IMG/VR virus record: IMGVR_UViG_3300045988_159892
Span: 1-36,017 of that record
Direction: 5' to 3' (one strand)
DNA: 36,017 nt
DNA from: a virus
Shown here one piece after another: positions 11,476-36,017 of this stretch (its first letter is position 1; each line of letters begins with the position of its first letter). Under the pieces are notes generated by a model. That model was given only the letters and a program-made list of their open reading frames with translations, made no database searches and had not been told where the DNA came from. The position numbers and the translations under genes are program-made.

Positions 11476-11561
11476 TTCGTCGTCGGTTTGCCTTGCATCA
11501 TCACAGGGTTAATACAAAGATCAAAAGCCTCGGCGCATTATCCAAATCCCCAGGCTTGTTT

Positions 11562-11978: not shown

Positions 11979-11982
11979 ATCA

Positions 11983-14900
11983 TTACAGATTATCCAGTTT
12001 ACGGTTCATGGCGGCCAGCGAATCTCGCATCTCCGGCAGAACCTTTGTGAAAGTCCGAATGTCGGCCACGTTGCCGTTCATTTGCACCAAAATGTCACGG
12101 GTGTCGGTCATGCGGTTCAGTTGCTCGATGGAGATGCTGCGGCCGTATGCAGCCTGCTCGACCAGAATGTTTATCTTGCCCTGAATGTCGGTGAAGCGTC
12201 CATTCAGTTCGCTGGCCGTGTCCTGTGACATCGTAGAAAAGCCTCGCGAGGTTCCGGATTGGGAGGATTCGGTTTCAGTATCTTGGAGGTATTTGTCCGC
12301 CCAGCCATATTGATTATTCAGTTCGTTAGTTATATCGTCAACCATTTGATTAATGATACCTTCTTCAGTCGGAGATATAACACCGTCAGACCAGAACTGT
12401 TGAAGCTTGTCTCGTATGGCTTGCATTGGAGATGATATGTCTGCCTTCATGGCCTCGATAACCATCTGTTTGATCATATCTTTTACAAAATCCTTTGCGC
12501 TCTTTGCCCGATCTTCGCCTTGCGCCCATGCGTTTGCGTACGCTTCGGCAAAATTGTCTATGGCTGACTGTACATCCTCGCCGAATATGGCATCTTGAGC
12601 CTTGTCAATATTTTCTTGAATCAGTTTATTGTTTTCCTCGATTTGGTCTTGCCATTCTTTTATCCGATCATCATCTGATTTTTTCTTGCTTTGTTCTTCT
12701 CTGATCTGCTTTTGCAACAAAACATTCTGCTGTTTCAGCATGTCATTCTGTTGACCTATAAGATTAGAGGCATCGGTTGAATAGGCTTTATTAATAGCAT
12801 CGCCAAGGGCATCATACGATTTTGCTAATGCGTCGACTTGATCCTGAAGGGCCTCGATTGTACGCTCCTTTCGACGATCTCCGCTCAATAGACTCCACAA
12901 ATTTGAAATTACCGACACAACTCCCTGAATCCCCTGCACAGGATTTCCCGAAGCGAACCCTGCTACCGCTTGTGCGGTTCCTCCAACGGCACCGGCTATC
13001 TCGTTTATTGATGCTGTGGTATCTTCATCGGCTCCAAATGTGGATGCAATGGATGAAATGCCGCTTATTGTAGACGACACAATATTCAACGCCTCGGACA
13101 CACCTAACCATGCTTGCTTACGTAATTCTACAGCGCGTATGTCGTCTTTATTAGCAAGAGCCTGCTTGTAGGCTTTGAAGTTGGCCGATATGCTTGCAAA
13201 TGGATTTTTTCGCGTGGCTGTCTCTGCTGCCTCGTCAAGCTTGTCAGTGACGGTTTTCAGATTGATTGGATCGAGATCGGCATCTTTCAGCAGGCTGTTG
13301 ATATTATCAATAATACGCAATATCTCTCGGCTCGATAGAGCATCGAGATTCTGAAACAGGTTGATCCAGTCGTCCGTTTTCATCAGCTCCTCGGCGCGAA
13401 TCTCGCCTACCTGCTGTGCTTCTGACTTATTTATCTGCGGGATCAAATCTTCGCGTCCGCCGGCCGTTGCTGCATTGCGTGCGTTCTCCGCATTCTGCCG
13501 AATCTTCGCTATTCTATCTTCGGCAGAACGATATTCTTCGACTACGGCATTCAGGCTTGCAGCAATCTCGGCACGGTCGATCCGTATGCCTAAATCTGTC
13601 GCCTGCTCTTGCGATATATTGCCAGCCTTTAGAGCGTTATCCACCCACTTGCGGAACTCCTCGTATTTCTCCTTTATGCTATTTATACGGCGATCCTCCT
13701 CCGATAGCGTGTCGTCGGTGATCTGTTTGTATATTCGGTCAAGCTCTTGGGCGTATTTCAAGTCTACGGCGGCACGATCATCAGCATCAATTTGTCTGAT
13801 ATTAGATTCCCTCTCTTGAAAATCTTTCGTTTGATTCGCTGTTAGTGATCCTCCTTGCGCGGCTTCAAGTTTCGATTTATCCTCTTTCAGTTTGTCAAGT
13901 TCCTCTTTTGTGCGCAAGTCTATTTCGGCCAACTCTTTCTGCTTTCCATCTTTCATTATGTCGATGCGCGACTGTTGTAACTCCCGATCATTAGCAAGAA
14001 TAAGGTCGGACAGTTTTTCCTGCGCCTTCGTAACAGAGGTTGTGGTTTTGTCATCGACCCCCGCCAACTTTTTGGCTTCGTCGAGTGTTTTTTTCGCATT
14101 CTCGACCGCACTTTGCTTCTCTTTGACTGTCTCTACATTTTCTCCACTACTGATAGCAGATTTCCACGCTTTTACAGCTTCGTCATAGGCTTTTTGGGCG
14201 GATTTGAGATTTTCAGTGGCCGATACGATAGACCCGGCCGCTGCGCTGGACTGCTGCCCTCCTGAAGTAATGCCGGCAAGGGTTTTTTCTCCATTTGTTA
14301 TTGCGTCAATCAACTGCTGCCGTTCGGCATACAACTCGTTCGCCTTTCGTGCTGCATCTTCGATCTGCTTTTCTGAATATGGAACTTTCTCCAAATCCTG
14401 CAGCACCACAAGTTGCCCACCAACCGTTGTAGTTTTATTGCGGTAATAATATTTATCCTGGTAGATAGAACTTAATCCTGCAAGTTCTCTGTCTATATCA
14501 GAAACACGTGTTTTTGCCGTGCTAATTTGCGACGTTACGTCTATTTTTAAAGCCTCCTTCTGTGCATCGCTGAACGCTCTTATCTTTGTAATATTGATAC
14601 CAAGGACACGCCCATACTCGTCAAACTGTGAAATAGCCGAAGGGACAGCACTTGCCAATTTGTTCATAGTATCGGCAAGCTGGTCATTTTCAGTTTTAGT
14701 GCGGGACGTTTTTGACGCAAGTACTTCATAAGTATCTGCCAAATCCGATATGCTATCTGCATTAGACGCATAGTCCGAAGTTACAGCGTTCAGATCTGAT
14801 ACAATGTCGGTAGTTGATTTTGCTTTCTTTGAAAAGGTGGTCAATGCCGTAACAATGCCTATCAAAGCACTTGCCGCAAGCACATAAGGATTCGCCTTTA

Positions 14901-15891
14901 CTGCCTTATTGAACAGAATCTGCGCCTGGGTTGCCCGCGTCAGCATCTTGGTCTGCTCTAAAATGGCTTTTGTCGCCTCAACTATCGTCTGCACTTTCTG
15001 TGCTGCAGCCACCGCAATGAGCGCTGCTTTATATGCGCCGTAAGCCGCAACCAACGGTATAAGAATATCCAATACCTTCTGGTAATTCTCAACAAGCGAG
15101 ATCGTCCCCTTCAGCACTCCAGCAATAATGCCCTCACTCGACTTTCCCATGTTGTTGAACATGGTATCGATTGCATCACTGAGGTTGGAGATAAGACCAG
15201 AGATTGTCTTGGACTGCTCCTGCATAAGGTTATAGAACTGCCCCCCTTCGTTGGTCATACCCTCGATAACCTTTTTCACGTCCTCGAATCCGATCTTTCC
15301 GGCCGTTACCATAGCATTTATCTCATCCGTGGTCTTGCCGTACATCTTAGCCATCTCTTGCAATACCGGAATGCCCGAACTGGTGAATTGAAGCATATCA
15401 CGCGCGTACAGGCGTCCCTGCACAGCCGTTGTACCGTACAGGTAGGTCAGACGTTCGAGAGGCAAACCCAGCCCGGCCGCCACGTTACCCAATCGGGTCA
15501 AGGTGTCGGTTATATCCTCGGCAGCAAATCCGTAGGCAAGCAACTGACGGGCACCGTCGGCTACACCCTGTAAATCGAACGGAGTCTTGGCGGCCAGCTC
15601 TACCATTTCAGCCATCAGCGCGTCAGCCTTTTCCTTGCTTTGCAAAAGGGTTGTAAAGGCAACTTCCAGCTGTTGAAATTCGCCACGGGTCATAGCAAGC
15701 TGCCGGACAAGTCCAGCCAACGATATCCCTACGCCTATTTGTGCCAGCGTATTGCCCAATTTGTGCATGGCAATATCCATGCGGTCGGCGTCATTTACGA
15801 CATTAGACGTTACTGTTCTGGCGGTTTGCTGAAGCTCTCTGAACTTGCGTACGGCCTCCTCATTATCTATTACGACAGTAAGATTTATCAT
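11983..15891 (-). CDS. Tail tape measure protein (1302 aa)
   Basis: Size and extensive coiled-coil. N-terminal segment ...AAKTPFDLQGVADGARQLLAYGF... is typical of the tape-measure domain. Position after the G/GT chaperones. Confidence 0.9.
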   Translation of the reverse strand: MINLTVVIDNEEAVRKFRELQQTARTVTSNVVNDADRMDIAMHKLGNTLAQIGVGISLAGLVRQLAMTRGEFQQLEVAFTTLLQSKEKADALMAEMVELAAKTPFDLQGVADGARQLLAYGFAAEDITDTLTRLGNVAAGLGLPLERLTYLYGTTAVQGRLYARDMLQFTSSGIPVLQEMAKMYGKTTDEINAMVTAGKIGFEDVKKVIEGMTNEGGQFYNLMQEQSKTISGLISNLSDAIDTMFNNMGKSSEGIIAGVLKGTISLVENYQKVLDILIPLVAAYGAYKAALIAVAAAQKVQTIVEATKAILEQTKMLTRATQAQILFNKAVKANPYVLAASALIGIVTALTTFSKKAKSTTDIVSDLNAVTSDYASNADSISDLADTYEVLASKTSRTKTENDQLADTMNKLASAVPSAISQFDEYGRVLGINITKIRAFSDAQKEALKIDVTSQISTAKTRVSDIDRELAGLSSIYQDKYYYRNKTTTVGGQLVVLQDLEKVPYSEKQIEDAARKANELYAERQQLIDAITNGEKTLAGITSGGQQSSAAAGSIVSATENLKSAQKAYDEAVKAWKSAISSGENVETVKEKQSAVENAKKTLDEAKKLAGVDDKTTTSVTKAQEKLSDLILANDRELQQSRIDIMKDGKQKELAEIDLRTKEELDKLKEDKSKLEAAQGGSLTANQTKDFQERESNIRQIDADDRAAVDLKYAQELDRIYKQITDDTLSEEDRRINSIKEKYEEFRKWVDNALKAGNISQEQATDLGIRIDRAEIAASLNAVVEEYRSAEDRIAKIRQNAENARNAATAGGREDLIPQINKSEAQQVGEIRAEELMKTDDWINLFQNLDALSSREILRIIDNINSLLKDADLDPINLKTVTDKLDEAAETATRKNPFASISANFKAYKQALANKDDIRAVELRKQAWLGVSEALNIVSSTISGISSIASTFGADEDTTASINEIAGAVGGTAQAVAGFASGNPVQGIQGVVSVISNLWSLLSGDRRKERTIEALQDQVDALAKSYDALGDAINKAYSTDASNLIGQQNDMLKQQNVLLQKQIREEQSKKKSDDDRIKEWQDQIEENNKLIQENIDKAQDAIFGEDVQSAIDNFAEAYANAWAQGEDRAKSAKDFVKDMIKQMVIEAMKADISSPMQAIRDKLQQFWSDGVISPTEEGIINQMVDDITNELNNQYGWADKYLQDTETESSQSGTSRGFSTMSQDTASELNGRFTDIQGKINILVEQAAYGRSISIEQLNRMTDTRDILVQMNGNVADIRTFTKVLPEMRDSLAAMNRKLDNL

Positions 15892-24988: not shown

Positions 24989-26245
24989 CTAACCGAAATA
25001 TCCTCTGTAACTTTTGTTTACTTTCTTTATCTTTCCGAGAATCATGCCCAAGACATAATAGCGTATTGCGTCGATCAAGTGGTCGGCCTGTCCGTCCTTC
25101 GGCCTGTTCAGCGGCAAGCCGTCTTTATCCTCGTCCCATACATAATTGCGGAACTCCATCATGGCATTGTATGATCGCTCGGTAACGTATATCTCCATTT
25201 CGAGCATCTTTTCGATGCCGGCAATAACTGACGGGCCGCTCTTGTCGACAGGGTAGATGTTGATTCCTGCATTATGTATCTCGTCGATCAGGCGAGGATC
25301 GGCCGATTCCGATATGACCTTCAAATCACGGTAAGGCTTTAGTTGCTCGATAATCTCCTTCGTCAGCATATGCGTGCGGTAGCATATCTCGTCGATGTAT
25401 AGCGCATTGCCAATAATTCCACATTTGGCAATAGCTGTCGGATCGTTCGAGTAGCCGAAGTCCTGACACAAGGCCACCTTCTCGCACCATTGCGGAAACT
25501 CTTTAACCATATGCACATTCTTGAATATCGCGCCCTCGGCAACGTCTATCCACCTGCCCATCACGACGTGCGCATACTTGTCGGGATTCTCTATCTTCAT
25601 TCGCTCAACTTCCTGCAAAAATTTGTCGGAAAGGTTGTCGAGATTATCGAGGTACGTTGTGTGGATGTGCAGGACATTCGGGTGAGTGCTTATCTGCACG
25701 TCCACGCCATCTATATTTACCAGTTTATGTGTTTTCTCGATGTACTTGCGGTAAATGAAGTGGTTTGAATCAGTCGGATTCATGATAATGATGACCCGAT
25801 TCTGAATTCCCTTCTTACGTATTGAAAGCATGATCTTGTCAAAGTCCTTCTCGCTCGTCCACTCCTCCGCCTCGTCGCACACGAACGTCGTGATGCCATT
25901 TATGGACTTCAGCTTTGCCGTCTGATTGCCAGATGATGTATTGATGCCACGGAACAACACACGGCTGCCGGACACAAGGTTTTCGACGTCCATCTTGGTT
26001 ATGTGAAAGAACTCTTTTGTTCCGTCGGCATCGATCTTTTCCGTGAACTCGGGAATCACAGATATGGCCGCAGATACCATCGTATAACGACAATACAGAA
26101 TAACATGACCCGCCTCGAACGTCAGCCGCTCGATAAATGTCCCAGCATTGAAAGACTTTCCCGACCCTCGGCCTCCTGTTATCAAGATAATGAAGTGATC
26201 GGTATCTTCATACAGAGGCAGGTATATGTCCTGCGGTTCTATCAT
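24989..26245 (-). CDS. terL: Terminase large subunit
   Basis: Walker A ITGGRGSGKSF. I prefer the start at ATG 26243-26245 (MIEPQD...), which forms an ATGA overlap with the TerS stop, over the GTG 26275 in the ORF track. Confidence 0.9.
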   Translation of the reverse strand: MIEPQDIYLPLYEDTDHFIILITGGRGSGKSFNAGTFIERLTFEAGHVILYCRYTMVSAAISVIPEFTEKIDADGTKEFFHITKMDVENLVSGSRVLFRGINTSSGNQTAKLKSINGITTFVCDEAEEWTSEKDFDKIMLSIRKKGIQNRVIIIMNPTDSNHFIYRKYIEKTHKLVNIDGVDVQISTHPNVLHIHTTYLDNLDNLSDKFLQEVERMKIENPDKYAHVVMGRWIDVAEGAIFKNVHMVKEFPQWCEKVALCQDFGYSNDPTAIAKCGIIGNALYIDEICYRTHMLTKEIIEQLKPYRDLKVISESADPRLIDEIHNAGINIYPVDKSGPSVIAGIEKMLEMEIYVTERSYNAMMEFRNYVWDEDKDGLPLNRPKDGQADHLIDAIRYYVLGMILGKIKKVNKSYRGYFG

Positions 26246-26670
26246 TTCTTCTTGTTCAGACGATCTTTTACCCACTCCTTGATGTCCACGGACCCCTTCA
26301 TACTTACGTCTGCTTCGATCTCGGAACGCTCGACGTATCCACGTCTCTTGCCCCGTGTCTTCAGAGTAAAGATGATTGCCGTCTCGGAGGGCCGTTCAAT
26401 CCATCCCGCAAACCTTTTATTTCCGTCCTCGTCTGCTTCAATAGCGGGAACCCCGGCAACAAGCTTGCGGAGATTGCTTTCAGCCAGGTCGATGAACCGC
26501 TCCCGAGAATCCTCGAGTACTTGCGCAAATTCTGGATCATCCTTGCACCATGTGTAGATTGTGCTACGTTCGACGCCCAAATTGGCGGCTATGTCTGATA
26601 AAATCCCTCCACAAGCGTTTGCAACCTTGCGGAATATATCTGCGTCAGGCTTCTTAGTAGGCATTGCCAT
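26242..26670 (-). CDS. terS: Terminase small subunit (HTH)
   Basis: N-terminal HTH (ILSDIAANLGVERSTIYTWCKDD), size, and translational coupling to terL. Confidence 0.75.
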   Translation of the reverse strand: MAMPTKKPDADIFRKVANACGGILSDIAANLGVERSTIYTWCKDDPEFAQVLEDSRERFIDLAESNLRKLVAGVPAIEADEDGNKRFAGWIERPSETAIIFTLKTRGKRRGYVERSEIEADVSMKGSVDIKEWVKDRLNKKK

Positions 26671-26693: not shown

Positions 26694-27413
26694 TTATTCC
26701 ACTCGTTCTACCATGTCGGCAAACATCTCTCCAGGGATGACTTTTTCGTCGGGTGAGAATCCGAATCGAAGCATGAATGCCGATTTTGCCCGATAGGATT
26801 TGAAGTTCAGCATCACGTAAGATTCAATGTCTCCAACCTTCTGCTCGGATTGTTGACGAATCTGCTCTTTCATCTGCTTTACGGCCGCTTTTCGTTCTTC
26901 ATACGGTCGTTGTATCTCCTCGAAATCATCCACGATGGATGCTGCACTGGCACTCACTTCGTCCTGCATGATGGATATGCCATAGATATTCATATCTGCC
27001 TCTGAGAGCCCGGCTGCTTCGTAATCGATACCTGGTACCAGTATTTTCATCTTCTCCATATCAAACTCTCCCATGGCGGAAGGGGAATTCATGAAGATGT
27101 TTTGCTCGCGTTCGGTCTTATCGTCCAATTCAACGGCCTCGACCTTGATGTCGTAATCTGTTGCGGGTGTCCCGTCATAGCCGTTGATGATGTCAAGTGT
27201 TTGTATTCTCTTGTGTCCGGATACGAGATAAGACGAGAGACGGTTCCACACGATACCACCCAGGAAGCCCACCGTTTTGAAGTTCTTTTTGAGTTTTCGG
27301 ACTACCTCGGGATCCTCTTTTCGGGGATTGTATGGTGCAAAGCTGATTTGCGAGCGCCGAATAACAACGGTCTCACTTTGCTTGTATTTGGTTTGCTGCT
27401 TTTTCTGCGTCAT
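26694..27413 (-). CDS. ParB/Srx-fold N-terminal domain protein (IbrB / DndB-like class)
   Basis: Motifs FAPYNPRK and SGHKRIQ resemble the ParB-like nuclease domain signature. The C-terminal half is acidic and helical. Confidence 0.7.
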   Translation of the reverse strand: MTQKKQQTKYKQSETVVIRRSQISFAPYNPRKEDPEVVRKLKKNFKTVGFLGGIVWNRLSSYLVSGHKRIQTLDIINGYDGTPATDYDIKVEAVELDDKTEREQNIFMNSPSAMGEFDMEKMKILVPGIDYEAAGLSEADMNIYGISIMQDEVSASAASIVDDFEEIQRPYEERKAAVKQMKEQIRQQSEQKVGDIESYVMLNFKSYRAKSAFMLRFGFSPDEKVIPGEMFADMVERVE

Positions 27414-27468
27414 GGCGGAGTAGGATGTTTCGGGAGAGGGGGAATACTGCGTATATCTTTTCGAGGTC

Positions 27469-28068
27469 TTAGGGATAATGCTGGCGGAGAAAGTCGAACA
27501 CCTCCGGCGAAAACGTCAGACCTTGCGATTTGTTTTTGTTGTAGGATATGGGCTCCGGCAGTTTCCTTGCTTTGATGTAGGCCATTACGTCCGCCTTCTT
27601 CCATTTTGATAGAGGATAGACTTTTCCTGTGTGGCTTATGGCTTCGTTTTCGTATCCGCGCAACATAAGACAACGATTCATGCCGTCCGACTGTTTCATA
27701 CCGTAGAAAGAATATGGAATGCCGGTCTTCATGCGGACCAATTCATCAACATCTTTCAATGACAGCAGCTTTATGTTGGGATTGGGGATACAATATAGCC
27801 CACAGCGCAGAACGCGCGTCAGCGTCCAATGGGGTATCTGCATGATGCGCACGTTCGAATAACGGGTTTTGACCGCCCGCAGGTAATTGTCGATATGGTC
27901 CAATCCTTTAACGAAGTACATGAACACGCAAACGACTTCTTTGAAGTGCGGCGCCATAAGATCAAGTAGTACCTCGCTGTCTTTGCCGCAAGAATAAAAA
28001 AGGATTGCCCTGTCCGTTTTTTGACGGACAGAGGCAATCACTTCGTTTGCATGGTCTATCGGGGTCAT
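27469..28068 (-). CDS. PAPS-reductase-family PP-loop ATPase (IbrA / DndC-like class)
   Basis: PP-loop SCGKDS near the N-terminus (FYSCGKDSEVLLDL), with size and layout of phage PAPS-reductase-like proteins. Confidence 0.75.
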   Translation of the reverse strand: MTPIDHANEVIASVRQKTDRAILFYSCGKDSEVLLDLMAPHFKEVVCVFMYFVKGLDHIDNYLRAVKTRYSNVRIMQIPHWTLTRVLRCGLYCIPNPNIKLLSLKDVDELVRMKTGIPYSFYGMKQSDGMNRCLMLRGYENEAISHTGKVYPLSKWKKADVMAYIKARKLPEPISYNKNKSQGLTFSPEVFDFLRQHYP

Positions 28069-28514: not shown

Positions 28515-28922
28515 TTAACAATTTATTTTCTCGATTACTTTACCGAGGTGGTAGTCTATCTCGGTCATGGTGTATTCGTTGCCGTTGTATTCGTACACGA
28601 TCGGCTCGTTGGTCTCTTCGTCGCATACGTCGATCAACTCGGCACCTTTGACCTCGACCAATGCACCGGGGCGATTCTTTTCGTAACCTACCCAGAACTG
28701 TATGGCGTCGTAGTGATTAATGATTGTATCGACGCCTTTGTTACTGTCCCATGCTGATTCGGGCACGTCGCTGTCTTTCTTATAGACCTTGCCTGTATTG
28801 TTGTCTCGATACGAAATGTATTTAGTGTTGGTAGGTCGAACCTCGCGCGTTTCGACTGTCTTTTCGCCCGACAAAATCGCATCGAACCATTTCTGTTTGA
28901 TGATGAGAGTTAATACTTTCAT
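28515..28922 (-). CDS. ASCH-domain protein
   Basis: N-terminal MKVLTLIIKQKWFDAILSGEKTVETRE matches the ASCH signature (K..W...I..G.K..E.R). Confidence 0.75.
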   Translation of the reverse strand: MKVLTLIIKQKWFDAILSGEKTVETREVRPTNTKYISYRDNNTGKVYKKDSDVPESAWDSNKGVDTIINHYDAIQFWVGYEKNRPGALVEVKGAELIDVCDEETNEPIVYEYNGNEYTMTEIDYHLGKVIEKINC

Positions 28923-28938
28923 AATCTTTTAATTTTAG

Positions 28939-29011
28939 TAGCGGGGACAAGATTCGAACTTGTGATCTGCTGGGACACTAACCCGCCGTGTTACCATTGC
29001 ACCACCCCGCA
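28939..29011 (-). tRNA. Phage-encoded tRNA with non-canonical features; anticodon loop UUAGUGU (AGU, Thr, if read canonically)
   Basis: Reverse complement folds as a cloverleaf: U8, A14, GG in the D loop, A21, T arm ACAAG-UUCGAAU-CUUGU and a 5-nt variable loop. Odd features: U1.U72 mismatch, C13.A22, an extra A in the 3' strand of the anticodon stem (GCGGG / CCC-A-GC), and no encoded CCA. Confidence 0.65.
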
Positions 29012-29187: not shown

Positions 29188-29508
29188 CTACATTATTTCA
29201 AGATTCAGTCGCTTGAAGCACCGCCACTCGTTCTTCTCGGTGTCGAAATACACCTGAACGGTGTCGTTCTTCTTGCGGGTGTCGTTGTCCTTTATTGAAG
29301 GCACGAGGTCAGTGCGCAGCGTGCCCCACGCCTCACGCAGGGTGCCGTCCACCTTGCGAAAGTAGAACCGCACTACCTCGGTGTGCATACGGCGCATGAG
29401 ATTGAAATTGCGCCAGGCAAGTTTTAGGCACTCGGCAAAGGCCCGGCGGGTTGTATAGTAAAATCGCCACGCCATACGCATGATGTTTGAAAGATCGGTT
29501 GTTTTCAT
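29188..29508 (-). CDS. DUF2693-like small protein
   Basis: Motif FYFRKVDGTLREAWGTL is typical of a family common on Bacteroidales mobile elements (recalled, not searched). Confidence 0.6.
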   Translation of the reverse strand: MKTTDLSNIMRMAWRFYYTTRRAFAECLKLAWRNFNLMRRMHTEVVRFYFRKVDGTLREAWGTLRTDLVPSIKDNDTRKKNDTVQVYFDTEKNEWRCFKRLNLEIM

Positions 29509-30097: not shown

Positions 30098-30619
30098 TTA
30101 ATACTTTGACAAAAAACTATTATTAGAATAAAAGCACCCATTATACTCAATGAATTGGCCGAAAGTTCGTAATTCGCCATCTTGATTAAGAAATGCGAAT
30201 TTTGATCGGCCAATCATTGTTTTTATCAAAGCGTCGAATTCTTTCGAGTAAAACCCATATTCTTTTATTGTAGACACAAAATAGAATCTGAAAGCCGTCT
30301 CGCTGTCAGTCATGTCATTAAAAGGTGTGACATTCAGAATACCGTTATGAGCGAATGATATACCTGTAGTCTCGTCTCTAAAAGGGTGACAATTCGCTGT
30401 GCAAATAGACCCATGTGTAGCATATCTAAAGTGAATAATTGCAGGTTCGTCTATTGATACAATAGAGGCATATTTTACAAAGGTATTAAACCTCAAAGTC
30501 TTATATATTTTTGACATTGTCGCTATGCCACAACCGTCTGGGTTAACCGTAGCACATTGCTTTAGTAAAGCAATGTGCGGCATCGGTACACCTTTAGGCT
30601 TGATTATTAAAATACACAT
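30098..30619 (-). CDS. Class-II glutamine amidotransferase-like Ntn hydrolase (N-terminal Cys)
   Basis: I set the start at ATG 30617-30619, giving MCILIIKPKG (Cys2 as nucleophile). Motifs HFRYATHGS, NCHPF and FAHNGIL. Confidence 0.75.
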   Translation of the reverse strand: MCILIIKPKGVPMPHIALLKQCATVNPDGCGIATMSKIYKTLRFNTFVKYASIVSIDEPAIIHFRYATHGSICTANCHPFRDETTGISFAHNGILNVTPFNDMTDSETAFRFYFVSTIKEYGFYSKEFDALIKTMIGRSKFAFLNQDGELRTFGQFIEYNGCFYSNNSFLSKY

Positions 30620-30623
30620 ATAA

Positions 30624-31523
30624 TTATTCGTTAAATAAATTTTTACGATCATTGAAGAATTTCTTTTGCGAGGCCGTTAAAAACGGCAATTCGTCTATTG
30701 TAGTAGCTGTAATCAATTCAGTATTATTAAGAGAATGATTTATCAATGCGCTTAAGAATTTGACCCATTGATTTATTTTTTCAAAATTGGTCGTGCCTTG
30801 ATGCTGCCTGAACTCAATTGTCTTATGATTAACAAAAGACATGATATTCAACTTATAATATCGATCGCTATTGAATATCTGAATCAAGTCATTGAAACTC
30901 GTGATATTAGCATCTTTAATATTGCGTGCTATATTTATGATAGATTTACAGTACCTATTATTATTAGCACGTCGACTTTGTGGCATAAATGAATCTATAA
31001 TAGGCTCAATAATAGCATAATTGACTATTATACGCTGCCATTGTTTTATGGTGAATGATTCTGCCCCGAAATGAACGTGCAGGCCACATGATCTATTAAC
31101 ACGGGCTTCGTTGTCATTCAATACCTTGCAAACCTTTTTCAAGGTATTCAAACTTCTTAAAATAGGTGAAACGACTTCGCATGAATTGTAACCGTCGATC
31201 GAACCGTCTGACCCTAATTTATATGCCTTTTTCTGATCGTTATGATTATACCCGGTCACTATAGACTGAATGCCATATTCAGACAAAGCAGTGCTAATAA
31301 GATTCTTGTCTATATTATAGCATTCTATCTCAATACCTAATGTAAAACGTCGATGATTGTCTTTTGCCGCAATCTGTTCACCCTCTACATATTGTACAAG
31401 AGTATAATATTTATTCGCATCGTAACGCGAACACTTTAAATCTTTGACTAATTTGTTAATCTTTTCAGCTTTAGTAGCGTTACTTAAGACGATCGCGCGA
31501 ACTTCTGTAAAAAAATCTGACAT
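30624..31523 (-). CDS. Amidoligase_2-like (GCS2/glutamine-synthetase-fold) enzyme
   Basis: Motifs GIEIEC, GSDGSI, CEVVSP, CGLHVHFG and TIEFRQHQGT. I set the start at ATG 31521-31523 (MSDFFTEV), not the GTG 31556 in the track. Its stop lies 4 nt before the GATase-like ATG. Confidence 0.75.
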   Translation of the reverse strand: MSDFFTEVRAIVLSNATKAEKINKLVKDLKCSRYDANKYYTLVQYVEGEQIAAKDNHRRFTLGIEIECYNIDKNLISTALSEYGIQSIVTGYNHNDQKKAYKLGSDGSIDGYNSCEVVSPILRSLNTLKKVCKVLNDNEARVNRSCGLHVHFGAESFTIKQWQRIIVNYAIIEPIIDSFMPQSRRANNNRYCKSIINIARNIKDANITSFNDLIQIFNSDRYYKLNIMSFVNHKTIEFRQHQGTTNFEKINQWVKFLSALINHSLNNTELITATTIDELPFLTASQKKFFNDRKNLFNE

Positions 31524-31560
31524 AGTAGTAATATTTAATTGTTGTTTTGATTTCACGACG

Positions 31561-31679: not shown

Positions 31680-31928
31680 ATGCGAGTTAAAGAAATTCTA
31701 AAAGAAAGAGGTATAACCGCAAAAGAGCTTGCGGCTAAAATAGGCATGACCGAAACGGGATTGAGTATCGCGATAAGCGAAAAGGGTAATCCGCCATTGA
31801 AAAGATTACAGGATATCGCTGCGGCATTGAATGTCAGCGTCGCCGAACTGTTCGAGCCGCAGGATGCATCGCAACCTACAGGCCGATGCCCGCATTGCGG
31901 GAAGCTAATTAAAATAAAGATAGAATAA
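31680..31928 (+). CDS. XRE/Cro-type HTH protein with a C-terminal CxxC zinc-ribbon-like tail
   Basis: ITAKELAAKIGMTETGLSIAISEKGNPPLKRLQDIAAALNVSVAELF is a classic HTH_3 pattern. C-terminal CPHCG. Confidence 0.85.
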   Translation: MRVKEILKERGITAKELAAKIGMTETGLSIAISEKGNPPLKRLQDIAAALNVSVAELFEPQDASQPTGRCPHCGKLIKIKIE

Positions 31929-31929
31929 G

Positions 31930-32262
31930 ATGGAGAATGAAAATCAATTCAACGGCAACAACTCAAGTGGCTATAAGCCGTTGTCAATGGAAGCTGCAAT
32001 AAGGTTGGAGAGGCAGTTTAACGAATTGAGAGATTCAATGAGCCAATTATCTAAATTACAAGATGATTTCACTCATTTGGTTGTCAATATTCTGAGACGC
32101 AATCTTGAGATGGAATGTGATCATTCGTTGAAAATGGAAGCGCAGTATGCCTTGAAATATGATCGTGCTTTGTTTTTTACAAAGTGGTATTATCGAGGCC
32201 GGTATCGGAAATATAGGTATCGAAGAATATGCCTTGAGCGGCTTATTCGAAACATACAATAA
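31930..32262 (+). CDS. Hypothetical protein (110 aa) with a very basic/aromatic C-terminus
   Basis: Its ATG lies 1 nt after the HTH stop. C-terminus WYYRGRYRKYRYRRICLERLIRNIQ. Followed by a terminator. Confidence 0.55.
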   Translation: MENENQFNGNNSSGYKPLSMEAAIRLERQFNELRDSMSQLSKLQDDFTHLVVNILRRNLEMECDHSLKMEAQYALKYDRALFFTKWYYRGRYRKYRYRRICLERLIRNIQ

Positions 32263-32267
32263 ATAAA

Positions 32268-32306
32268 AAAGGCCGGGGATTGCTCCTCGGCCTTTCGGGT
32301 TTTATT
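32268..32306. terminator. Bidirectional intrinsic terminator between convergent cassettes
   Basis: 11-bp stem 32268-32278 / 32285-32295 (one G.U) with a 6-nt loop. T-rich on the plus side (TTTCGGGTTTTATT) and A-rich upstream, which reads TTTTTTATTTATT on the minus strand. Confidence 0.75.
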
Positions 32307-32322
32307 ATGTAATGGGTGAATG

Positions 32323-32814
32323 TTACCAGTTTTGGAATCTATACGTTCCTGTTTCTTCAAAGCTCTTTATCACAAAAACCTTTTTTTCGGTTTCCCCTTG
32401 ATAATCTGAATTGACTTGAATCGTTTTATACGATGAATAGAATACGGAATAAGTATTATACGTTACCCACAGAATATACGATCCATTTTTTACGTTTTCC
32501 AACGTAAAAACGCCCGGCAAATATCCCGTCTGATATTCAGGCTCTGCAACTGTTCCGTCAGAATAGGTTATTTTGCCATCCGATACAACCGAAGATTTAC
32601 TTTTTTCGGCATCAACTGTTTTTCCGATATTTTCAAATAAGCATACGCAAGCCTTGTCAGCTAACTGTTCTTGCTCCAACTCACCCGTAAAATAATTTTC
32701 GTATTGAGTATATACTTGAACAAAAAAGGTTTGTTGCTCCGACTCTTCGTCTTTTTCGCATCCGTAAAATATAAGAGCCGATGTGGCTATTGCCAAAAGT
32801 AGAATCTTTTTCAT
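32323..32814 (-). CDS. Lipoprotein, predicted surface-exposed (163 aa)
   Basis: Signal peptide MKKILLLAIATSALIFYG followed by Cys19, then the acidic stretch EKDEESEQ resembling the Bacteroidota lipoprotein export signal. Its ATG lies 2 nt after the nuclease stop. Confidence 0.75.
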   Translation of the reverse strand: MKKILLLAIATSALIFYGCEKDEESEQQTFFVQVYTQYENYFTGELEQEQLADKACVCLFENIGKTVDAEKSKSSVVSDGKITYSDGTVAEPEYQTGYLPGVFTLENVKNGSYILWVTYNTYSVFYSSYKTIQVNSDYQGETEKKVFVIKSFEETGTYRFQNW

Positions 32815-32816
32815 CC

Positions 32817-33878
32817 CTATTTTATATAAAATTTGACGACCGAGATAAGTTGCTCGGATAACTTATATATGTCATTGAACGATTCGATTAAGTGCTTTGT
32901 CCCCACCTTGTTTTCATCGAACGTCTCGACATACTTTTTTGATCCGTTGAAGTGTAGCCGACATATCGGCTTCCTGTTATTGTCATCAAACAGAATCGCG
33001 AAATAACTTTGCGCGTCCCTGCTTACGATCCGGTTAAGGTCTACGACATTGCAAAGAATAGCCCGAACGATATAAAATCCCTGGATTTCGTCCTCTGTTG
33101 TTACGATCTTGCTTTCGTCCGCCTCTTCGACAGGTTCCGATTCCTTGCTTGGGCCTACGGCCGGAATATCGGGCGTAATTGCCGACTTTAACCGATCATT
33201 CACGTAGTCGTTTGTGTATAACTGAAAGGCCCGTTGAATCATGGGACGGAAGTCGTCCATCACATTGCGCGTAACGCTGCCGGAATATACCTGCTTGGTG
33301 ATGAACTTCACAAAGTCATCCGTAGGTTCCATGCTTTGGGCAACGATATAGGATCGGATGGCGTTCGTGTATTTCATCTCCGTGGCCGAGTTGAGTATGA
33401 CGGTAGTATCATACTGGCTTCGGCAAAACTGCTTTAACTTGTCTATGTGGCTATCCTTCAGGTCAAGCAAATTGATCTCGAAAAACGGTCTTTCATCCAT
33501 CTTGTTCGGCTCGTCGAGGTCAGCAAAGAATTTGTAGACGATTCCGTTGGTCAAAACGCCGAACTTCGCCTTTGAGACATGGTAATAGCGGAACAGCTGG
33601 GCTTGGTACTTGTCCAAATCCGCCGACCAGTGCTTGCATTCGATCAACATGATCGGATTGCCGTTGAGAAATACCGTGTAATCTATCTTCTCGCCCTTTT
33701 TGATGCCGTAGTCGCAATCACATTCGGGTGTTACCTCGGTAGGGTTAAAAATATCATATCCAAGCGTTTGGATGAAAGGTAAGACAAAAGATGTCTTTGT
33801 TGCCTCCTCTGTTTTGATGTTGTCCTTCATCTTTGCAACCTTGTCGGACAGTAGCTTGATTGAATCTTTGAAGTCCAT
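32817..33878 (-). CDS. PD-(D/E)xK nuclease-fold protein of the HsdR N-terminal-like type, with an uncharacterised C-terminal domain (353 aa)
   Basis: EEATKTSFVLPFIQTLGYD, IDYTVF...PIMLIECK and GVLTNG match the HSDR_N-type restriction-endonuclease-like core. No helicase, methylase or specificity partner in the window. Confidence 0.7.
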   Translation of the reverse strand: MDFKDSIKLLSDKVAKMKDNIKTEEATKTSFVLPFIQTLGYDIFNPTEVTPECDCDYGIKKGEKIDYTVFLNGNPIMLIECKHWSADLDKYQAQLFRYYHVSKAKFGVLTNGIVYKFFADLDEPNKMDERPFFEINLLDLKDSHIDKLKQFCRSQYDTTVILNSATEMKYTNAIRSYIVAQSMEPTDDFVKFITKQVYSGSVTRNVMDDFRPMIQRAFQLYTNDYVNDRLKSAITPDIPAVGPSKESEPVEEADESKIVTTEDEIQGFYIVRAILCNVVDLNRIVSRDAQSYFAILFDDNNRKPICRLHFNGSKKYVETFDENKVGTKHLIESFNDIYKLSEQLISVVKFYIK

Positions 33879-33890
33879 ATCGTATAAGTT

Positions 33891-34577
33891 TTACATTATA
33901 TTCCGCTTGATTACCCCCGTTACCCGAAACAGCCTTTTAACATCTTCGAGCGGTATTTCAAACTCGGGATAAAAATATTTCCCCTCGCGAGGCCCGTTTT
34001 CGTGCTTCATGTGGTTGTCGCTGATGCAGCTAAAGGCTGTTTTGTTCTCGTTGTAATATAGCCTTTTGAGAAATCGGTTCTCGGCTGTCTCGATCACATA
34101 AACGGTTCCAGGTTCGATGAAATTTTCGGTATATCTCCGTAATCCAATCACGCACCCGGCAGGATAGTTTGGAACCATTGAATTTCCATATACGCGCATC
34201 GCAAACTCGCTATCTTTTAATATCCCGCCGATCTCTATCCACCCTGCCGGTGCCGCAGGTGTCATCTCCATGCCATATTGTGTTCCGGCGGCTACCTCAG
34301 CGTCAAAGTATGGAATAACTTTCCCGGAGCTTATCTCCTGCGACGCACTGCTTTCTTCGCCAGATTGAGCCTCTTTGAGCATATTGCCTTCTCCAGTAAG
34401 AAGCCATGCAATGTTTAAGTCAGGGTATGTAGCCTTTATTCGTTCTACATATTCAGGTCCTATTCCTTTGCTGATACTATTCACGAATGAACTTGACGCG
34501 CCAATCCCAAGAGCAAAAGACCTTCTGCTTATTCTTTTATGGTCTATAAATTCTATAAGCCTTTCCTTAACTCCCAT
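33891..34577 (-). CDS. CI/LexA-like repressor (N-terminal HTH plus S24 peptidase domain)
   Basis: I set the start at ATG 34575-34577 (MGVKERLIEFIDHKRISRRSF), not the TTG 34604 in the track. S24 motifs: VYGNSMVPNYPAG (Ser) and FLKRL (Lys). Confidence 0.85.
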   Translation of the reverse strand: MGVKERLIEFIDHKRISRRSFALGIGASSSFVNSISKGIGPEYVERIKATYPDLNIAWLLTGEGNMLKEAQSGEESSASQEISSGKVIPYFDAEVAAGTQYGMEMTPAAPAGWIEIGGILKDSEFAMRVYGNSMVPNYPAGCVIGLRRYTENFIEPGTVYVIETAENRFLKRLYYNENKTAFSCISDNHMKHENGPREGKYFYPEFEIPLEDVKRLFRVTGVIKRNIM

Positions 34578-34607
34578 ATCGTCAATTAGTTTATAGAAAT
34601 TCAATTA

Positions 34608-34639
34608 ATATAAATATTATTTATATGTATTTTGAATAC
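34608..34639. promoter_or_regulatory. Candidate operators in the divergent lysogeny-switch region
   Basis: Perfect 9-bp inverted repeat ATATAAATA-T-TATTTATAT (34608-34626), then GTATT-TTG-AATAC (34627-34639). The region is AT-rich, so significance is modest. Confidence 0.4.
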
Positions 34640-34645
34640 ACATTC

Positions 34646-34676
34646 TTGTTACATGAATAGAATTTCTATATATTTG
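34646..34676 (+). promoter_or_regulatory. Early-right promoter
   Basis: TTG (34646-34648), 20-nt spacer, TAtaTTTG (34669-34676). The ATG is at 34718. Confidence 0.55.
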
Positions 34677-34717
34677 CATTGTGATATTTAATTAACACTC
34701 AAAAATAAAGGTTTTAT

Positions 34718-35613: not shown

Positions 35614-36017
35614 ATGAATACGAATTACGAAAAGATCAAGTCCGACCTTCTGGCCTTTGGAAAGAGGAACGGCGCCTGCGCAGGGCAGTATCAGCGGCTC
35701 TACAAAGCGGAGAGCATCGAGGATGTGATCGCCGTTGTCAAGGATAATTTTGTGTGGTGCGCCAAGTACCGAGACTTCGCCGACGTGATTATGGCTAACC
35801 GCGAGCAGTTCGCCGAGCATCAGATATGGGCCAACCAAGACGTCAAGATTCAAGAAGGCATTGGTTATCTCCTGGCCACAGAGGGAGAGATCAACGCCGA
35901 GAGCTGGGGCACCTCGACGATCAACGCTACGAGCAGAGATGCCTCGACGATCAACGCCGAGAGCTGGGGCACCTCGACGATCAACGCCGAGAGCTGGGGC
36001 ACCTCGACGATCAACGC
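35614..36017 (+). CDS. Partial ORF (runs off the window) with 10-aa tandem repeats INAESWGTST
   Basis: ATG at 35614 with no stop to the window end (my own translation: MNTNYEKIKSDLLAFGKRNGACAGQYQRLYK...EINAESWGTSTINATSRDASTINAESWGTST...). Absent from the ORF track because it is open-ended. Confidence 0.7.
   Translation, partial: MNTNYEKIKSDLLAFGKRNGACAGQYQRLYKAESIEDVIAVVKDNFVWCAKYRDFADVIMANREQFAEHQIWANQDVKIQEGIGYLLATEGEINAESWGTSTINATSRDASTINAESWGTSTINAESWGTSTIN
35890..36017 (+). repeat. 30-bp in-frame tandem repeat, at least 4.3 copies
   Basis: The unit ATCAACGCCGAGAGCTGGGGCACCTCGACG is identical at 35890, 35950 and 35980, with a partial copy at 36010. The copy at 35920 is diverged. Confidence 0.95.

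What the first reader, a model, noticed from the sequence alone, without database searches (positions are those of the whole stretch)
32323..34577. Repressor-linked nuclease + surface lipoprotein operon: candidate prophage defence/exclusion module
The S24 CI/LexA-like repressor is followed after 12 nt by a 353-aa protein. That protein has an HsdR-N-type PD-(D/E)xK core (IDYTVF...IMLIECK...VLTNG) and an uncharacterised C-terminal domain of about 110 aa. Two nt further on comes a lipoprotein whose Cys19 is followed by the acidic stretch EKDEESEQ, which resembles the Bacteroidota surface-export signal. All three genes are on the same strand and end at a strong bidirectional terminator, so they should be expressed in the lysogen. 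This is the genomic niche occupied by lambda rexAB/sieB-type exclusion genes. No methyltransferase, helicase or specificity subunit is present, so it is not a classical R-M system. Pairing a cytoplasmic nuclease with an outer-surface lipoprotein in the immunity transcript is not a described system as far as I know.
Basis: partly seen in the sequence, partly recalled or inferred. Interest (0 to 1): 0.75.

Follow-up and report, generated by a model that had tools for sequence, protein, structure and literature searches.

The report
Prophage immunity operon carrying two cargo genes
A temperate gut phage co-transcribes its repressor with an uncharacterised restriction-type nuclease and a swappable surface lipoprotein; they are two independent passenger genes rather than one two-part defence system, but the nuclease family sits next to phage repressors in several bacterial phyla and is a good untested defence candidate.

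Summary
On the minus strand lie an S24 CI/LexA-like repressor (33891-34577), 12 nt later a 353-aa HsdR-N-type PD-(D/E)xK protein (32817-33878), 2 nt later a 163-aa lipoprotein (32323-32814), then a strong two-way hairpin (32268-32295).

The nuclease belongs to a very large family (full-length match to phrog_4225, over 7,700 homologues). D66, E80-x-K82 and Q94xxxY98 are invariant. Its C-terminal domain has no Pfam match and no significant PDB fold match.

In phages the nuclease gene lies directly downstream of an immunity regulator (S24 repressor, XRE HTH or ImmA protease) far more often than other genes do: 17/28 versus 23/248. Annotated pneumococcal and Corynebacterium phages show the same arrangement.

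The lipoprotein is not its partner. Sister phages with 90-97% identical nucleases carry a zinc-ribbon membrane protein in the same slot. Of nine lipoprotein-homologue contexts read, only a near-identical sister phage also has the nuclease. The others lie in tail-module moron islands, directly after a repressor, or in a chromosome.

Best reading: an immunity operon with two independent lysogen-expressed cargo genes. An unexplained excess of unrelated envelope proteins just downstream of this nuclease keeps a Rex-like reading alive.

The parts
34578..34717 (.). Divergent regulatory (switch) region between the repressor and the oppositely oriented early genes. It is 17.9% GC.
   Evidence: Bacteroidota-type -7 motif TAnnTTTG on the minus strand at 34700-34707 (upstream of the repressor) and on the plus strand at 34669-34676 (upstream of the gene starting at 34718). 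Inverted arms TATAGAAATTC / GAATTTCTATA at 34592-34602 and 34660-34670. GC. These are consensus matches only: TAnnTTTG is not enriched window-wide (28 found versus 23.5 expected).
33891..34577 (-). CI/LexA-like repressor, 228 aa, with an N-terminal DNA-binding part and a C-terminal S24 self-cleaving peptidase.
   Evidence: Pfam Peptidase_S24 E=1.7e-8. phrog_4 transcriptional repressor E=1e-21 over residues 10-235. 85% identical orthologue in sister phage L001, also directly upstream of the nuclease.
33474..33878 (-). Nuclease protein, N-terminal HsdR-type PD-(D/E)xK domain (about residues 1-135). Catalytic codons: D66 at 33681-33683, E80 at 33639-33641, K82 at 33633-33635. Also carries the Q94xxxY98 motif.
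   Evidence: Pfam HSDR_N and HSDR_N_2 above their cut-offs. E24, E25, D66, E80, K82, Q94 and Y98 are invariant in 31 diverse homologues. In the AF2 model these blocks average pLDDT 85-97, apart from a dip to 63 at residues 51-60; whole-protein mean 85.8. Top Foldseek PDB matches are the nuclease domains of BpuSI, V. vulnificus HsdR, DrdV and EcoR124I HsdR, with probabilities 0.96-1.0 but E-values of only 3e-3 to 5e-2.
33108..33473 (-). Nuclease protein, middle helical region (about residues 136-233) and a disordered acidic linker (234-257).
   Evidence: AF2 secondary structure shows helices at 142-234 and pLDDT below 50 for residues 234-257. The linker varies in length and sequence across the family.
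32817..33107 (-). Nuclease protein, C-terminal alpha-beta5-alpha domain of unknown function (residues 258-353) plus the stop codon.
   Evidence: AF2 on the domain alone: pLDDT 93.8, pTM 0.86. No Pfam family. Best PDB fold match has E=0.07; the T4 MotA DNA-binding domain reaches TM 0.46-0.50, which is not significant. Invariant T260, E264, D288, Y292, D298, C306 and R307. The domain is found in 1,510 clusters at 50% identity and lies at the C-terminus in nearly all of the 150 hits listed.
32323..32814 (-). Surface-lipoprotein cargo gene, 163 aa: signal peptide residues 1-18, lipidated Cys19 (codon 32758-32760), export signal E-K-D-E-E.
   Evidence: Read from the sequence. Cys19 is invariant in five homologues. 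The LES rule C-X-K-(D/E)2-X comes from PMC5080379. No Pfam, PHROG, PADLOC or PDB relative. 47 homologues were found with a profile. GC is 36.6% against 45% for the two upstream genes. Sister phages carry a different gene in this position.
32268..32295 (.). Two-way intrinsic-terminator-like hairpin that closes the operon and also the convergent plus-strand genes at 31680-32262.
   Evidence: 12-bp stem with 7 GC pairs. dG is -22.3 and -24.6 kcal/mol, z -5.6 and -5.7. The same hairpin sequence follows the alternative cassette in L001 and the lipoprotein in L002.

Best explanation
This is the lysogeny-maintenance (immunity) operon of a temperate Alistipes/Rikenellaceae-type siphophage. A promoter in the AT-rich switch region drives one transcript: repressor, then nuclease, then lipoprotein, ending at the hairpin. 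Behind the repressor ride two functionally independent cargo genes.

(1) The 353-aa protein is a stand-alone HsdR-type PD-(D/E)xK endonuclease with a private C-terminal domain. It needs no methyltransferase or motor partner. I infer that it cuts incoming foreign DNA in the lysogen, and that the C-terminal domain selects the substrate (modified DNA or a particular DNA structure). That would make it a restriction-like or type-IV-like barrier that temperate phages of several phyla have placed under repressor-operon control.

(2) The lipoprotein is a mobile moron. It is lipidated at Cys19 and flipped to the cell surface by its K-D-E-E signal. I infer that it changes the cell surface, most likely masking or blocking a receptor (Llp/Cor/Ltp-like superinfection exclusion), or otherwise acting as a lysogenic-conversion factor.

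Shown here: gene order and spacing, the terminator, the catalytic motifs, family membership, linkage of the nuclease family to immunity regulators, and the cassette swap with independent distribution of the lipoprotein. Inferred: co-transcription, nuclease activity and target, surface exposure, and any anti-phage effect.
For: Operon anatomy:
- Gaps of 12 and 2 nt. No -7 promoter motif lies on the minus strand between the repressor promoter region and the lipoprotein start codon; the only other minus-strand match (32794-32801) is inside the lipoprotein coding sequence. Strong hairpin.

Nuclease:
- Pfam HSDR_N and HSDR_N_2 above their cut-offs; full-length phrog_4225 match at E=4e-129.
- Invariant D66, E80-x-K82 and QxxxY.
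- Fold matches to HsdR, BpuSI and DrdV nuclease domains.
- No conserved neighbour among 94 chromosomal flanking genes (111 different Pfam families, and no methyltransferase family among those matched by two or more of them), so it acts alone.

Linkage to immunity regulators (same-strand HTH, S24 or ImmA gene within two genes upstream):
- Viral loci 17/28 versus 23/248 other genes, p=1e-9.
- Metagenome loci 11/48 versus 8/242, p=2e-5.
- Genome loci 4/65 versus 5/486 (Pfam check).
- S. pneumoniae phage IPP25: repressor, hypothetical, nuclease, integrase. Corynebacterium phage Juicebox: repressor gp34, endonuclease gp33.

Independence of the lipoprotein:
- Cassette swap in L001 and L007.
- Contexts of its homologues, including repressor followed directly by lipoprotein, with no nuclease (L254, L255).
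- GC step at the junction.
- The surface-export motif matches PMC5080379.
Against: - There is no expression data and no phenotype for either gene.
- No PADLOC model matches any of the three proteins.
- Immediate neighbours of the chromosomal copies are rarely defence genes.
- The family is unusually conserved for a defence gene: 42-55% identity across phyla and 58 invariant columns. That could point to a housekeeping DNA transaction.
- The function of the C-terminal domain is unknown, so 'substrate selector' is a guess.
- The gene immediately downstream of this nuclease is an envelope protein more often than a plain 'independent cargo' model requires: 9/16, 15/21 and 14/24 against matched backgrounds of 13%, 36% and 36%. 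An ion-channel partner recurs in both Bacteroidota-type and Firmicutes-type loci. These figures rest on my own crude ORF calling and a hydrophobicity heuristic.
Confidence: 0.55

Rival explanations
1. Obligate two-component nuclease plus surface-lipoprotein defence system. The two proteins would need each other to exclude phages.
For: The genes are 2 nt apart on one transcript. The pair is also present in L002.
Against: L002 is a near-identical sister phage (92% identical lipoprotein). L001 and L007, with 97% and 90% identical nucleases, carry a different gene in the slot. Eight of the nine lipoprotein-homologue contexts lack the nuclease. The GC content steps down at the junction. A surface-exposed lipoprotein has no obvious way to contact a cytoplasmic nuclease.
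Confidence: 0.04
2. Rex-like module. The nuclease-fold protein would be the conserved cytoplasmic sensor or effector that works with an interchangeable envelope partner, such as an ion channel, a zinc-ribbon membrane protein or lipoproteins. This would mirror lambda cI-rexA-rexB.
For: The same-strand downstream gene within 150 nt is an envelope protein in 9/16 viral, 15/21 genome and 14/24 metagenome clusters, against matched operonic backgrounds of 20/159, 106/295 and 51/143. The upstream neighbour is not enriched in two of the three sets. Gaps of -4 to 2 nt are common. Ion_trans channels follow the nuclease in L053/L056/L058/L129 and, as a separate lineage, in L065. The zinc-ribbon membrane partner is retained between nucleases only 52% identical (L001 and L042).
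Against: The partners are unrelated to each other, and about half are secreted proteins or lipoproteins that cannot touch a cytoplasmic protein. The same envelope families (this lipoprotein, DUF4468, Big_2 and lipocalin-like lipoproteins) also populate tail-module moron islands without the nuclease. A moron hot-spot at the end of the immunity operon therefore explains the phage cases. Most chromosomal copies have no such partner. The envelope calls are heuristic.
Confidence: 0.12
3. The nuclease serves the phage's own DNA metabolism, or a host housekeeping transaction such as recombination, repair, or processing at induction. Its position next to the repressor would then be incidental.
For: Conservation across phyla is high. 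Many chromosomal copies have no mobile or defence context. PHROGs files the family under 'DNA, RNA and nucleotide metabolism'.
Against: The gene lies in the lysogeny operon, on the strand opposite to the early lytic genes, in phages of Bacteroidota, Firmicutes and Actinobacteria. Replication and recombination genes are normally in the early lytic operons; the YqaJ recombination gene in L001 is an example. The gene is patchily present among related phages, which is typical of accessory genes.
Confidence: 0.15
4. Addiction or toxin module. The nuclease would be a toxin held in check by co-expression with the repressor, stabilising the prophage.
For: An XRE-HTH gene followed by an effector gene is a common toxin-antitoxin layout. 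HicAB lies next to the homologue in Porphyromonas phages.
Against: Most chromosomal copies stand alone with no HTH partner (4/65), so the protein is tolerated without an antitoxin. The upstream partners are bona fide phage repressors or ImmA proteases of differing families.
Confidence: 0.06
5. For the lipoprotein only: it is a lysogenic-conversion factor that benefits the host (adhesion, nutrient capture, immune evasion or vesicle cargo) rather than a phage-exclusion protein.
For: A homologue lies in an ordinary chromosomal neighbourhood (L249). The tail-module islands hold several unrelated lipoproteins. No similarity to Llp, Cor or Ltp was detected.
Against: The family is found mostly in phages, in positions typical of lysogen-expressed morons. 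Two of those contexts are behind the repressor (window/L002 and L254/L255).
Confidence: 0.35

Closest known systems
Lambda immunity operon PRM-cI-rexA-rexB (also P22 sieA/sieB)
   Same: The repressor is co-transcribed with exclusion cargo. The gene order is repressor, then a cytoplasmic protein, then an envelope protein, then a terminator, with expression in the lysogen. This comparison rests on established knowledge of lambda.
   Different: No sequence or fold relationship was detected, and no PADLOC model matched. RexA is not known as a PD-(D/E)xK nuclease. RexB is a polytopic inner-membrane protein, not a surface lipoprotein. Here the third gene is swappable and distributed independently.
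Nuclease domain of type I restriction subunit HsdR (EcoR124I, PDB 2w00; V. vulnificus, PDB 3h1t)
   Same: Pfam HSDR_N family. D...E-x-K catalytic core plus the QxxxY motif. These domains are among the best structural matches.
   Different: The protein is only 353 aa, with no SF2 helicase motor and no HsdM or HsdS partner. It carries a helical middle region and a unique alpha-beta5-alpha C-terminal domain.
phrog_4225 'endonuclease', also annotated 'type I restriction enzyme HsdR N-terminal domain-containing protein' (NCBI) and grouped with COG4748/COG2810 predicted restriction endonucleases
   Same: Full-length match at E=4e-129. NCBI names on close homologues. PMC3424549 groups HSDR_N and HSDR_N_2 with COG4748 and COG2810 and notes predicted type IV enzymes. 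PMC8649781 counts COG4748 among restriction endonucleases.
   Different: These are annotation labels only. I found no experimental work on the family. Membership of COG4748 itself could not be tested here because no COG library was available.
Phage lipoproteins that block superinfection: Ltp (S. thermophilus TP-J34, lysogeny module), Llp (T5), Cor (phi80/N15)
   Same: A small phage-encoded lipoprotein sitting in the lysogeny module (as Ltp does) or near tail genes (as Llp and Cor do, and as the homologues in L003 and L251 do). This comparison rests on established knowledge.
   Different: No detectable homology. The host is Bacteroidota and the protein has an outer-surface export signal. No exclusion phenotype is known.

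Membership tests
Pfam HSDR_N (PF04313) / HSDR_N_2 (PF13588) | Whole-protein score above the curated gathering threshold | tested here: met
   59.8 bits against a cut-off of 25.1, and 44.3 bits against 25.
PD-(D/E)xK nuclease, HsdR type | Catalytic D...(D/E)-x-K triad and the downstream QxxxY motif conserved in alignment | tested here: met
   D66, E80, K82, Q94 and Y98 are invariant in 31 homologues of 42-90% identity and in 48 closer ones.
PD-(D/E)xK nuclease, HsdR type | Fold resembles solved HsdR-type nuclease domains | tested here: met
   Top Foldseek PDB matches are 3s1s (BpuSI), 3h1t (HsdR), 7lo5/7lvv (DrdV) and 2w00 (EcoR124I HsdR), with probabilities 0.96-1.0. The E-values are only 3e-3 to 5e-2, so the support is moderate.
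PD-(D/E)xK nuclease, HsdR type | Mg-dependent DNA cleavage activity | not testable with these tools
   Needs a biochemical assay.
Type I restriction-modification system (HsdR subunit) | SF2 helicase/translocase domains within the R subunit | tested here: not met
   The protein is 353 aa and the only Pfam hits are the HSDR_N families. The AF2 model shows a nuclease domain, a helical region and a small C-terminal domain.
Type I restriction-modification system (HsdR subunit) | Adjacent hsdM methyltransferase and hsdS specificity genes | tested here: not met
   The neighbours are a repressor and a lipoprotein. No methyltransferase was found among the scanned window ORFs or in the sister locus. None recurs among 94 chromosomal neighbours.
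phrog_4225 (phage 'endonuclease' family) | Full-length match to the family profile | tested here: met
   E=4.1e-129, residues 1-352 aligned to profile positions 2-355 of 357.
Known anti-phage defence systems (PADLOC-DB v2.0.0) | Match to any of the 5,027 models for any of the three proteins | tested here: not met
   No family at E<=0.1. DefenseFinder and later PADLOC releases could not be run.
Type IV (modification-dependent) restriction enzyme | A recognisable modified-base reader domain (SRA, EVE/ASCH/YTH, Mrr-N and similar), or cleavage of modified DNA only | tested here: inconclusive
   The C-terminal domain matches no Pfam family and no PDB fold significantly. Activity is untested.
LexA/CI-type S24 repressor | S24 peptidase domain with Ser/Lys dyad, an N-terminal DNA-binding domain, and divergent early genes | tested here: met
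   Pfam S24 at 34.6 bits against a cut-off of 23.3; phrog_4. GNSM and KRL are visible in the sequence. Divergent genes start at 34718. Self-cleavage is untested.
Bacteroidota surface-exposed lipoprotein | Signal peptide ending in a lipobox Cys, followed by the export signal C-X-K-(D/E)2-X | tested here: met
   MKKILLLAIATSALIFYG-C19-E-K-D-E-E. Cys is invariant in homologues, which carry CEKGEE, CSKDDD and similar. The rule is from PMC5080379. The lipobox F-Y-G-C is non-canonical at position -3. Lipidation and surface exposure are untested.
Two-gene nuclease + lipoprotein system (as proposed) | Co-occurrence of the two families beyond close relatives | tested here: not met
   The two co-occur only in L002, a sister phage. 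They are absent together in L001 and L007 and in eight of nine lipoprotein-homologue contexts.

The most novel reading that the evidence does not exclude
The HsdR-N/C-terminal-domain protein would be the conserved cytoplasmic half of a widespread Rex-like exclusion module. Its envelope half would be interchangeable: a cation channel, a zinc-ribbon membrane protein or various lipoproteins. The module would have been recruited repeatedly into the repressor operon of temperate phages in at least three phyla. On this reading the lipoprotein here is the local envelope partner, not a random moron.
Probability: 0.12. Interest if true: 0.8.

Novelty: new variant of a known kind. Interest (0 to 1): 0.5.

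Why it matters
Prophage genes expressed together with the repressor are a known source of anti-phage functions such as rexAB and sieB. For gut Bacteroidota phages almost none have been characterised.

This work shows three things:
- A very large, uncharacterised stand-alone nuclease family (phrog_4225, with a C-terminal domain that has no Pfam family and no significant PDB fold match) is placed in that niche. It sits next to CI-type, XRE-type or ImmA-type regulators in phages of Bacteroidota, Firmicutes and Actinobacteria.
- The slot behind it is a hot-spot where unrelated envelope proteins are exchanged.
- Both points give concrete, cheap experiments: single-gene expression with phage challenge, and catalytic point mutants.

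If the nuclease protects, it would add a common methyltransferase-independent single-gene defence that PADLOC v2.0.0, the only defence catalogue available here, does not contain. It also corrects the idea of a dedicated nuclease-lipoprotein system, which the comparative data do not support.

Tried and rejected
- Nucleotide search of the 4.2-kb region against 50,697 phage records found nothing.
- PADLOC on the three proteins gave no hit. NCBIfam gave only sub-threshold noise.
- A sequence search of the nuclease against the PDB gave only chance matches.
- Foldseek of the full model against viral structures returned one relevant hit, an 'HsdR N-terminal domain' protein, which added nothing.
- The C-terminal domain alone gave no significant PDB fold. 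I considered the resemblance to the T4 MotA C-terminal domain (TM 0.46-0.50) and did not rely on it. Pfam at E<=10 gave only a sub-threshold DUF2004 match.
- The search with the C-terminal domain against 1.84 billion representatives was meant to reveal other architectures. It mostly returned fragments of the same family.
- A lipoprotein profile against the PDB found nothing.
- A 144-aa lipoprotein downstream of the nuclease in the Alistipes putredinis prophage group looked like a homologue after HMM iteration. BLASTP showed the similarity is confined to the signal peptide and GCEKDE, so I rejected it as a homologue.
- A classical R-M reading is rejected because there is no methyltransferase or motor.
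- A defence-island test on chromosomal neighbours was weak: few of the 94 neighbours match PADLOC models.
- Literature searches for HSDR_N, DUF450, HsdR-like and COG4748 combined with prophage or repressor terms found no description of this arrangement.


Full report
**What is there**

The window is a temperate siphophage or prophage. It has an integrase at 536-1906, a tape-measure protein and large tail proteins at 7228-15891, a large terminase at 24989-26275 and a tRNA-Thr at 28938-29011.

At its right end three minus-strand genes are packed head to tail:
- A 228-aa repressor at 33891-34577. Pfam Peptidase_S24 E=1.7e-8; phrog_4 E=1e-21.
- After 12 nt, a 353-aa protein at 32817-33878.
- After 2 nt, a 163-aa lipoprotein at 32323-32814.

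A hairpin at 32268-32295 follows. It folds at -22.3 kcal/mol on the minus strand and -24.6 on the plus strand (z -5.6 and -5.7, 0 of 200 shuffles as stable), and U-runs follow it on both strands.

Upstream of the repressor lies a 140-nt region of 17.9% GC. It has Bacteroidota-type TAnnTTTG motifs facing both ways, at 34700-34707 (minus) and 34669-34676 (plus), and divergent early genes from 34718. These motifs are consensus matches only. On the minus strand no further such motif lies between the repressor promoter region and the lipoprotein start codon. The only other match, at 32794-32801, is inside the lipoprotein coding sequence. One transcript is therefore the simplest reading, but this is inferred.

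**The nuclease**

It scores above threshold for Pfam HSDR_N (59.8 bits) and HSDR_N_2 (44.3 bits). It matches phrog_4225 'endonuclease' over its full length (E=4e-129).

The family is very large. More than 7,700 homologues were scored in the 90%-clustered database. The close ones are named 'type I restriction endonuclease' or 'HsdR N-terminal domain-containing protein' in Alistipes and Rikenellaceae. The capped scans of species genomes and of metagenome contigs each returned well over 500 confirmed matches (580 and 567), and the genome loci kept include Bacteroidota, Pseudomonas, Planctomycetota and Clostridia.

In 31 phage homologues of 42-90% identity, E24, E25, D66, E80, K82, Q94 and Y98 are invariant. 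This is the PD-(D/E)xK triad plus the QxxxY motif of HsdR nuclease domains.

An AlphaFold model (pLDDT 85.8) shows four parts: a nuclease domain, a helical middle region, a disordered acidic linker (residues 234-257) and a compact C-terminal alpha-beta5-alpha domain. The best PDB fold matches are the nuclease domains of BpuSI, V. vulnificus HsdR, DrdV and EcoR124I HsdR.

The C-terminal domain modelled alone is confident (pLDDT 93.8). It has no Pfam family and no significant PDB fold match (best E=0.07; T4 MotA C-terminal domain TM about 0.5). It occurs in 1,510 clusters at 50% identity and lies at the C-terminus in nearly all of the 150 hits listed.

There is no helicase, methyltransferase or specificity gene, so this is not a type I system. 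No PADLOC model matches.

**Linkage of the nuclease to immunity regulators**

I fetched 79 viral, 80 genome and 80 metagenome loci encoding relatives. I called ORFs with a simple greedy script, dereplicated loci by nuclease similarity, and marked regulators with HMMs iterated from seeds. The classes were checked by Pfam: HTH_3, Peptidase_S24 and Peptidase_M78/ImmA.

A same-strand regulator lies within two genes upstream of the nuclease as follows:
- Viral clusters: 17/28, against 23/248 other genes (p=1e-9).
- Metagenome clusters: 11/48, against 8/242 (p=2e-5).
- Genome clusters: 4/65, against 5/486 (p=0.014).

Annotated phages agree. S. pneumoniae phage IPP25 has repressor, hypothetical protein, 'type I restriction enzyme related protein', integrase. 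Corynebacterium phage Juicebox has repressor gp34 followed by endonuclease gp33. In Porphyromonas phages the gene follows HicAB.

Chromosomal copies are mostly solitary. Their 94 immediate neighbours fall into 111 different Pfam families, with no recurrent partner, and few match defence models.

The protein therefore appears to work on its own, and temperate phages of at least three phyla have placed it in the repressor operon. That position argues for a function in the lysogen. A restriction-like barrier is the most economical guess, but it is an inference.

**The lipoprotein is an independent, mobile cargo gene**

Its N-terminus (signal peptide, Cys19, then E-K-D-E-E) fits the experimentally defined surface-export rule C-X-K-(D/E)2-X (PMC5080379). 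It has no Pfam, PHROG, PADLOC or PDB relative.

A first search found 4 homologues. A profile search found 47.

Sister phages show a clean cassette swap. L002 keeps the lipoprotein. L001 (nuclease 97% identical) and L007 (90%) instead carry a 128-aa zinc-ribbon protein with two transmembrane helices. It sits between the same nuclease 3' end and the same terminator. The lipoprotein gene has 36.6% GC, against 45.1% and 45.0% for the two genes upstream.

Of nine homologue contexts read:
- One is the sister phage L002, with the nuclease.
- One has the lipoprotein directly after an S24 repressor, with no nuclease (L254, L255).
- Six lie in opposite-strand islands of several unrelated lipoproteins and secreted proteins, inserted among tape-measure and tail-fibre genes of other phages (the places L003-L006, L251-L253 and L256-L261).
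- One is in an ordinary chromosomal neighbourhood (L249).

**An unexpected pattern**

Using one heuristic for signal peptides, lipoboxes and transmembrane segments on all ORFs, I asked how often the same-strand gene within 150 nt downstream of the nuclease is an envelope protein:
- Viral clusters: 9/16, against a matched operonic background of 20/159 (p=1.5e-4).
- Genome clusters: 15/21, against 106/295 (p=1.5e-3).
- A later replication set from metagenomes: 14/24, against 51/143 (p=0.03).

The upstream neighbour is not enriched in two of the three sets.

The partners are unrelated to one another: Ion_trans channels, the zinc-ribbon membrane protein, and Big_2, lipocalin-like and DUF4468 proteins. 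Two partner types persist across divergent nucleases. The Ion_trans channel is retained between nucleases 53% identical, and a separate Ion_trans lineage occurs in a Firmicutes-type locus. The zinc-ribbon protein is retained between nucleases 52% identical.

In phages the simplest explanation is a moron hot-spot at the end of the immunity operon. The same envelope families also fill tail-module islands. The pattern nevertheless leaves a Rex-like reading open, with a cytoplasmic component plus an interchangeable envelope partner. I give that about 12%. These statistics rest on crude ORF calls and a hydrophobicity heuristic and need redoing with proper tools.

**Comparison with known systems**

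The layout works like the lambda cI-rexA-rexB immunity transcript. The lipoprotein resembles Ltp, Llp and Cor in kind. In both cases there is no homology, so these are analogies and not memberships.

The nuclease is a member of HSDR_N and phrog_4225. PMC3424549 groups HSDR_N and HSDR_N_2 with the COG4748/COG2810 predicted restriction endonucleases, but I could not test COG membership here. It fails the definition of a type I HsdR subunit. I found no paper describing the repressor linkage or any experiment on the family.

**Verdict**

- Observation: confirmed.
- Interpretation: partly supported. The niche and the intact nuclease hold. The two-gene system does not.
- Best explanation (confidence 0.55): an immunity operon carrying two independent lysogen-expressed cargo genes. 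One is a stand-alone restriction-like nuclease of an uncharacterised, repressor-linked family. The other is a swappable surface lipoprotein moron.
- Novelty: a new variant of a known kind.
- Interest: 0.5.

Noticed in passing
window 30098-31556 (minus strand): An Amidoligase_2 gene (E=2.5e-35) overlaps a class-II glutamine-amidotransferase-like gene. Both have low GC (33-35%). A Porphyromonas phage carries an amidoligase a few genes from its copy of the nuclease. This may be a peptide- or metabolite-ligating accessory pair.
   Followed up: partly
window 26694-28068 (minus strand): A PAPS-reductase-like gene (PF01507 E=6.5e-10; phrog_424) lies next to a 239-aa protein that matches phrog_9353 and, more weakly, ParB-like and methyltransferase PHROGs. 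The pair sits just upstream of the terminase and is conserved in sister loci L001 and L002. It could be a DNA-modification module. I did not examine whether it relates to self-protection from the nuclease.
   Followed up: no
window 35889-36017: A 30-nt tandem repeat of 4.3 copies (83% matches) runs off the right end of the window. It reads through as a repetitive ORF on the minus strand. It could be iterons or an origin-like array.
   Followed up: no
window 34592-34670: Perfectly complementary 11-nt arms, TATAGAAATTC and GAATTTCTATA, lie about 57 nt apart in the switch region between the repressor and the divergent early genes. They are candidate operator half-sites, but the region is very AT-rich, so chance is not excluded.
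   Followed up: partly
L053 2246-3019, L056, L058, L129, L065 7100-7864: A roughly 256-aa Ion_trans cation-channel protein follows the nuclease homologue with gaps of 0-34 nt. This occurs in Bacteroidota-type loci and, as a separate lineage, in a Firmicutes-type locus behind an ImmA protease. The nuclease-plus-channel pairing resembles RexAB.
   Followed up: partly
L003 5010-8367; L251-L253; L256-L261: Opposite-strand islands of three to five unrelated lipoprotein or secreted-protein genes (including DUF4468 and this lipoprotein family) are inserted among tape-measure and tail-fibre genes of Bacteroidales phages. They look like a shared pool of mobile envelope morons.
   Followed up: partly
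L001 11054-11440 and L007 7080-7466: A 128-aa zinc-ribbon protein with two transmembrane helices (weak match to Lar_restr_allev, E=1.7e-3, below threshold) occupies the lipoprotein slot. The gene table returned with locus L001 lists no gene at this position, but a 40%-identical copy follows the 52%-identical nuclease in L042.
   Followed up: partly
window 31680-32262 (plus strand): An 82-aa HTH_3 protein with a C-terminal CxxC zinc-ribbon-like tail and a 110-aa protein converge on the operon's terminator. Sister loci have an HTH_3 gene, with or without RhuM and NYN genes, in this position. This is a second variable cargo region.
   Followed up: no
window 28515-28922 and 29188-29508 (minus strand): A borderline ASCH-domain protein (E=3.4e-4, 21.7 bits against a cut-off of 21.2) and a WYL_2 protein (E=1e-22) lie in the early region next to the tRNA-Thr gene.
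   Followed up: no
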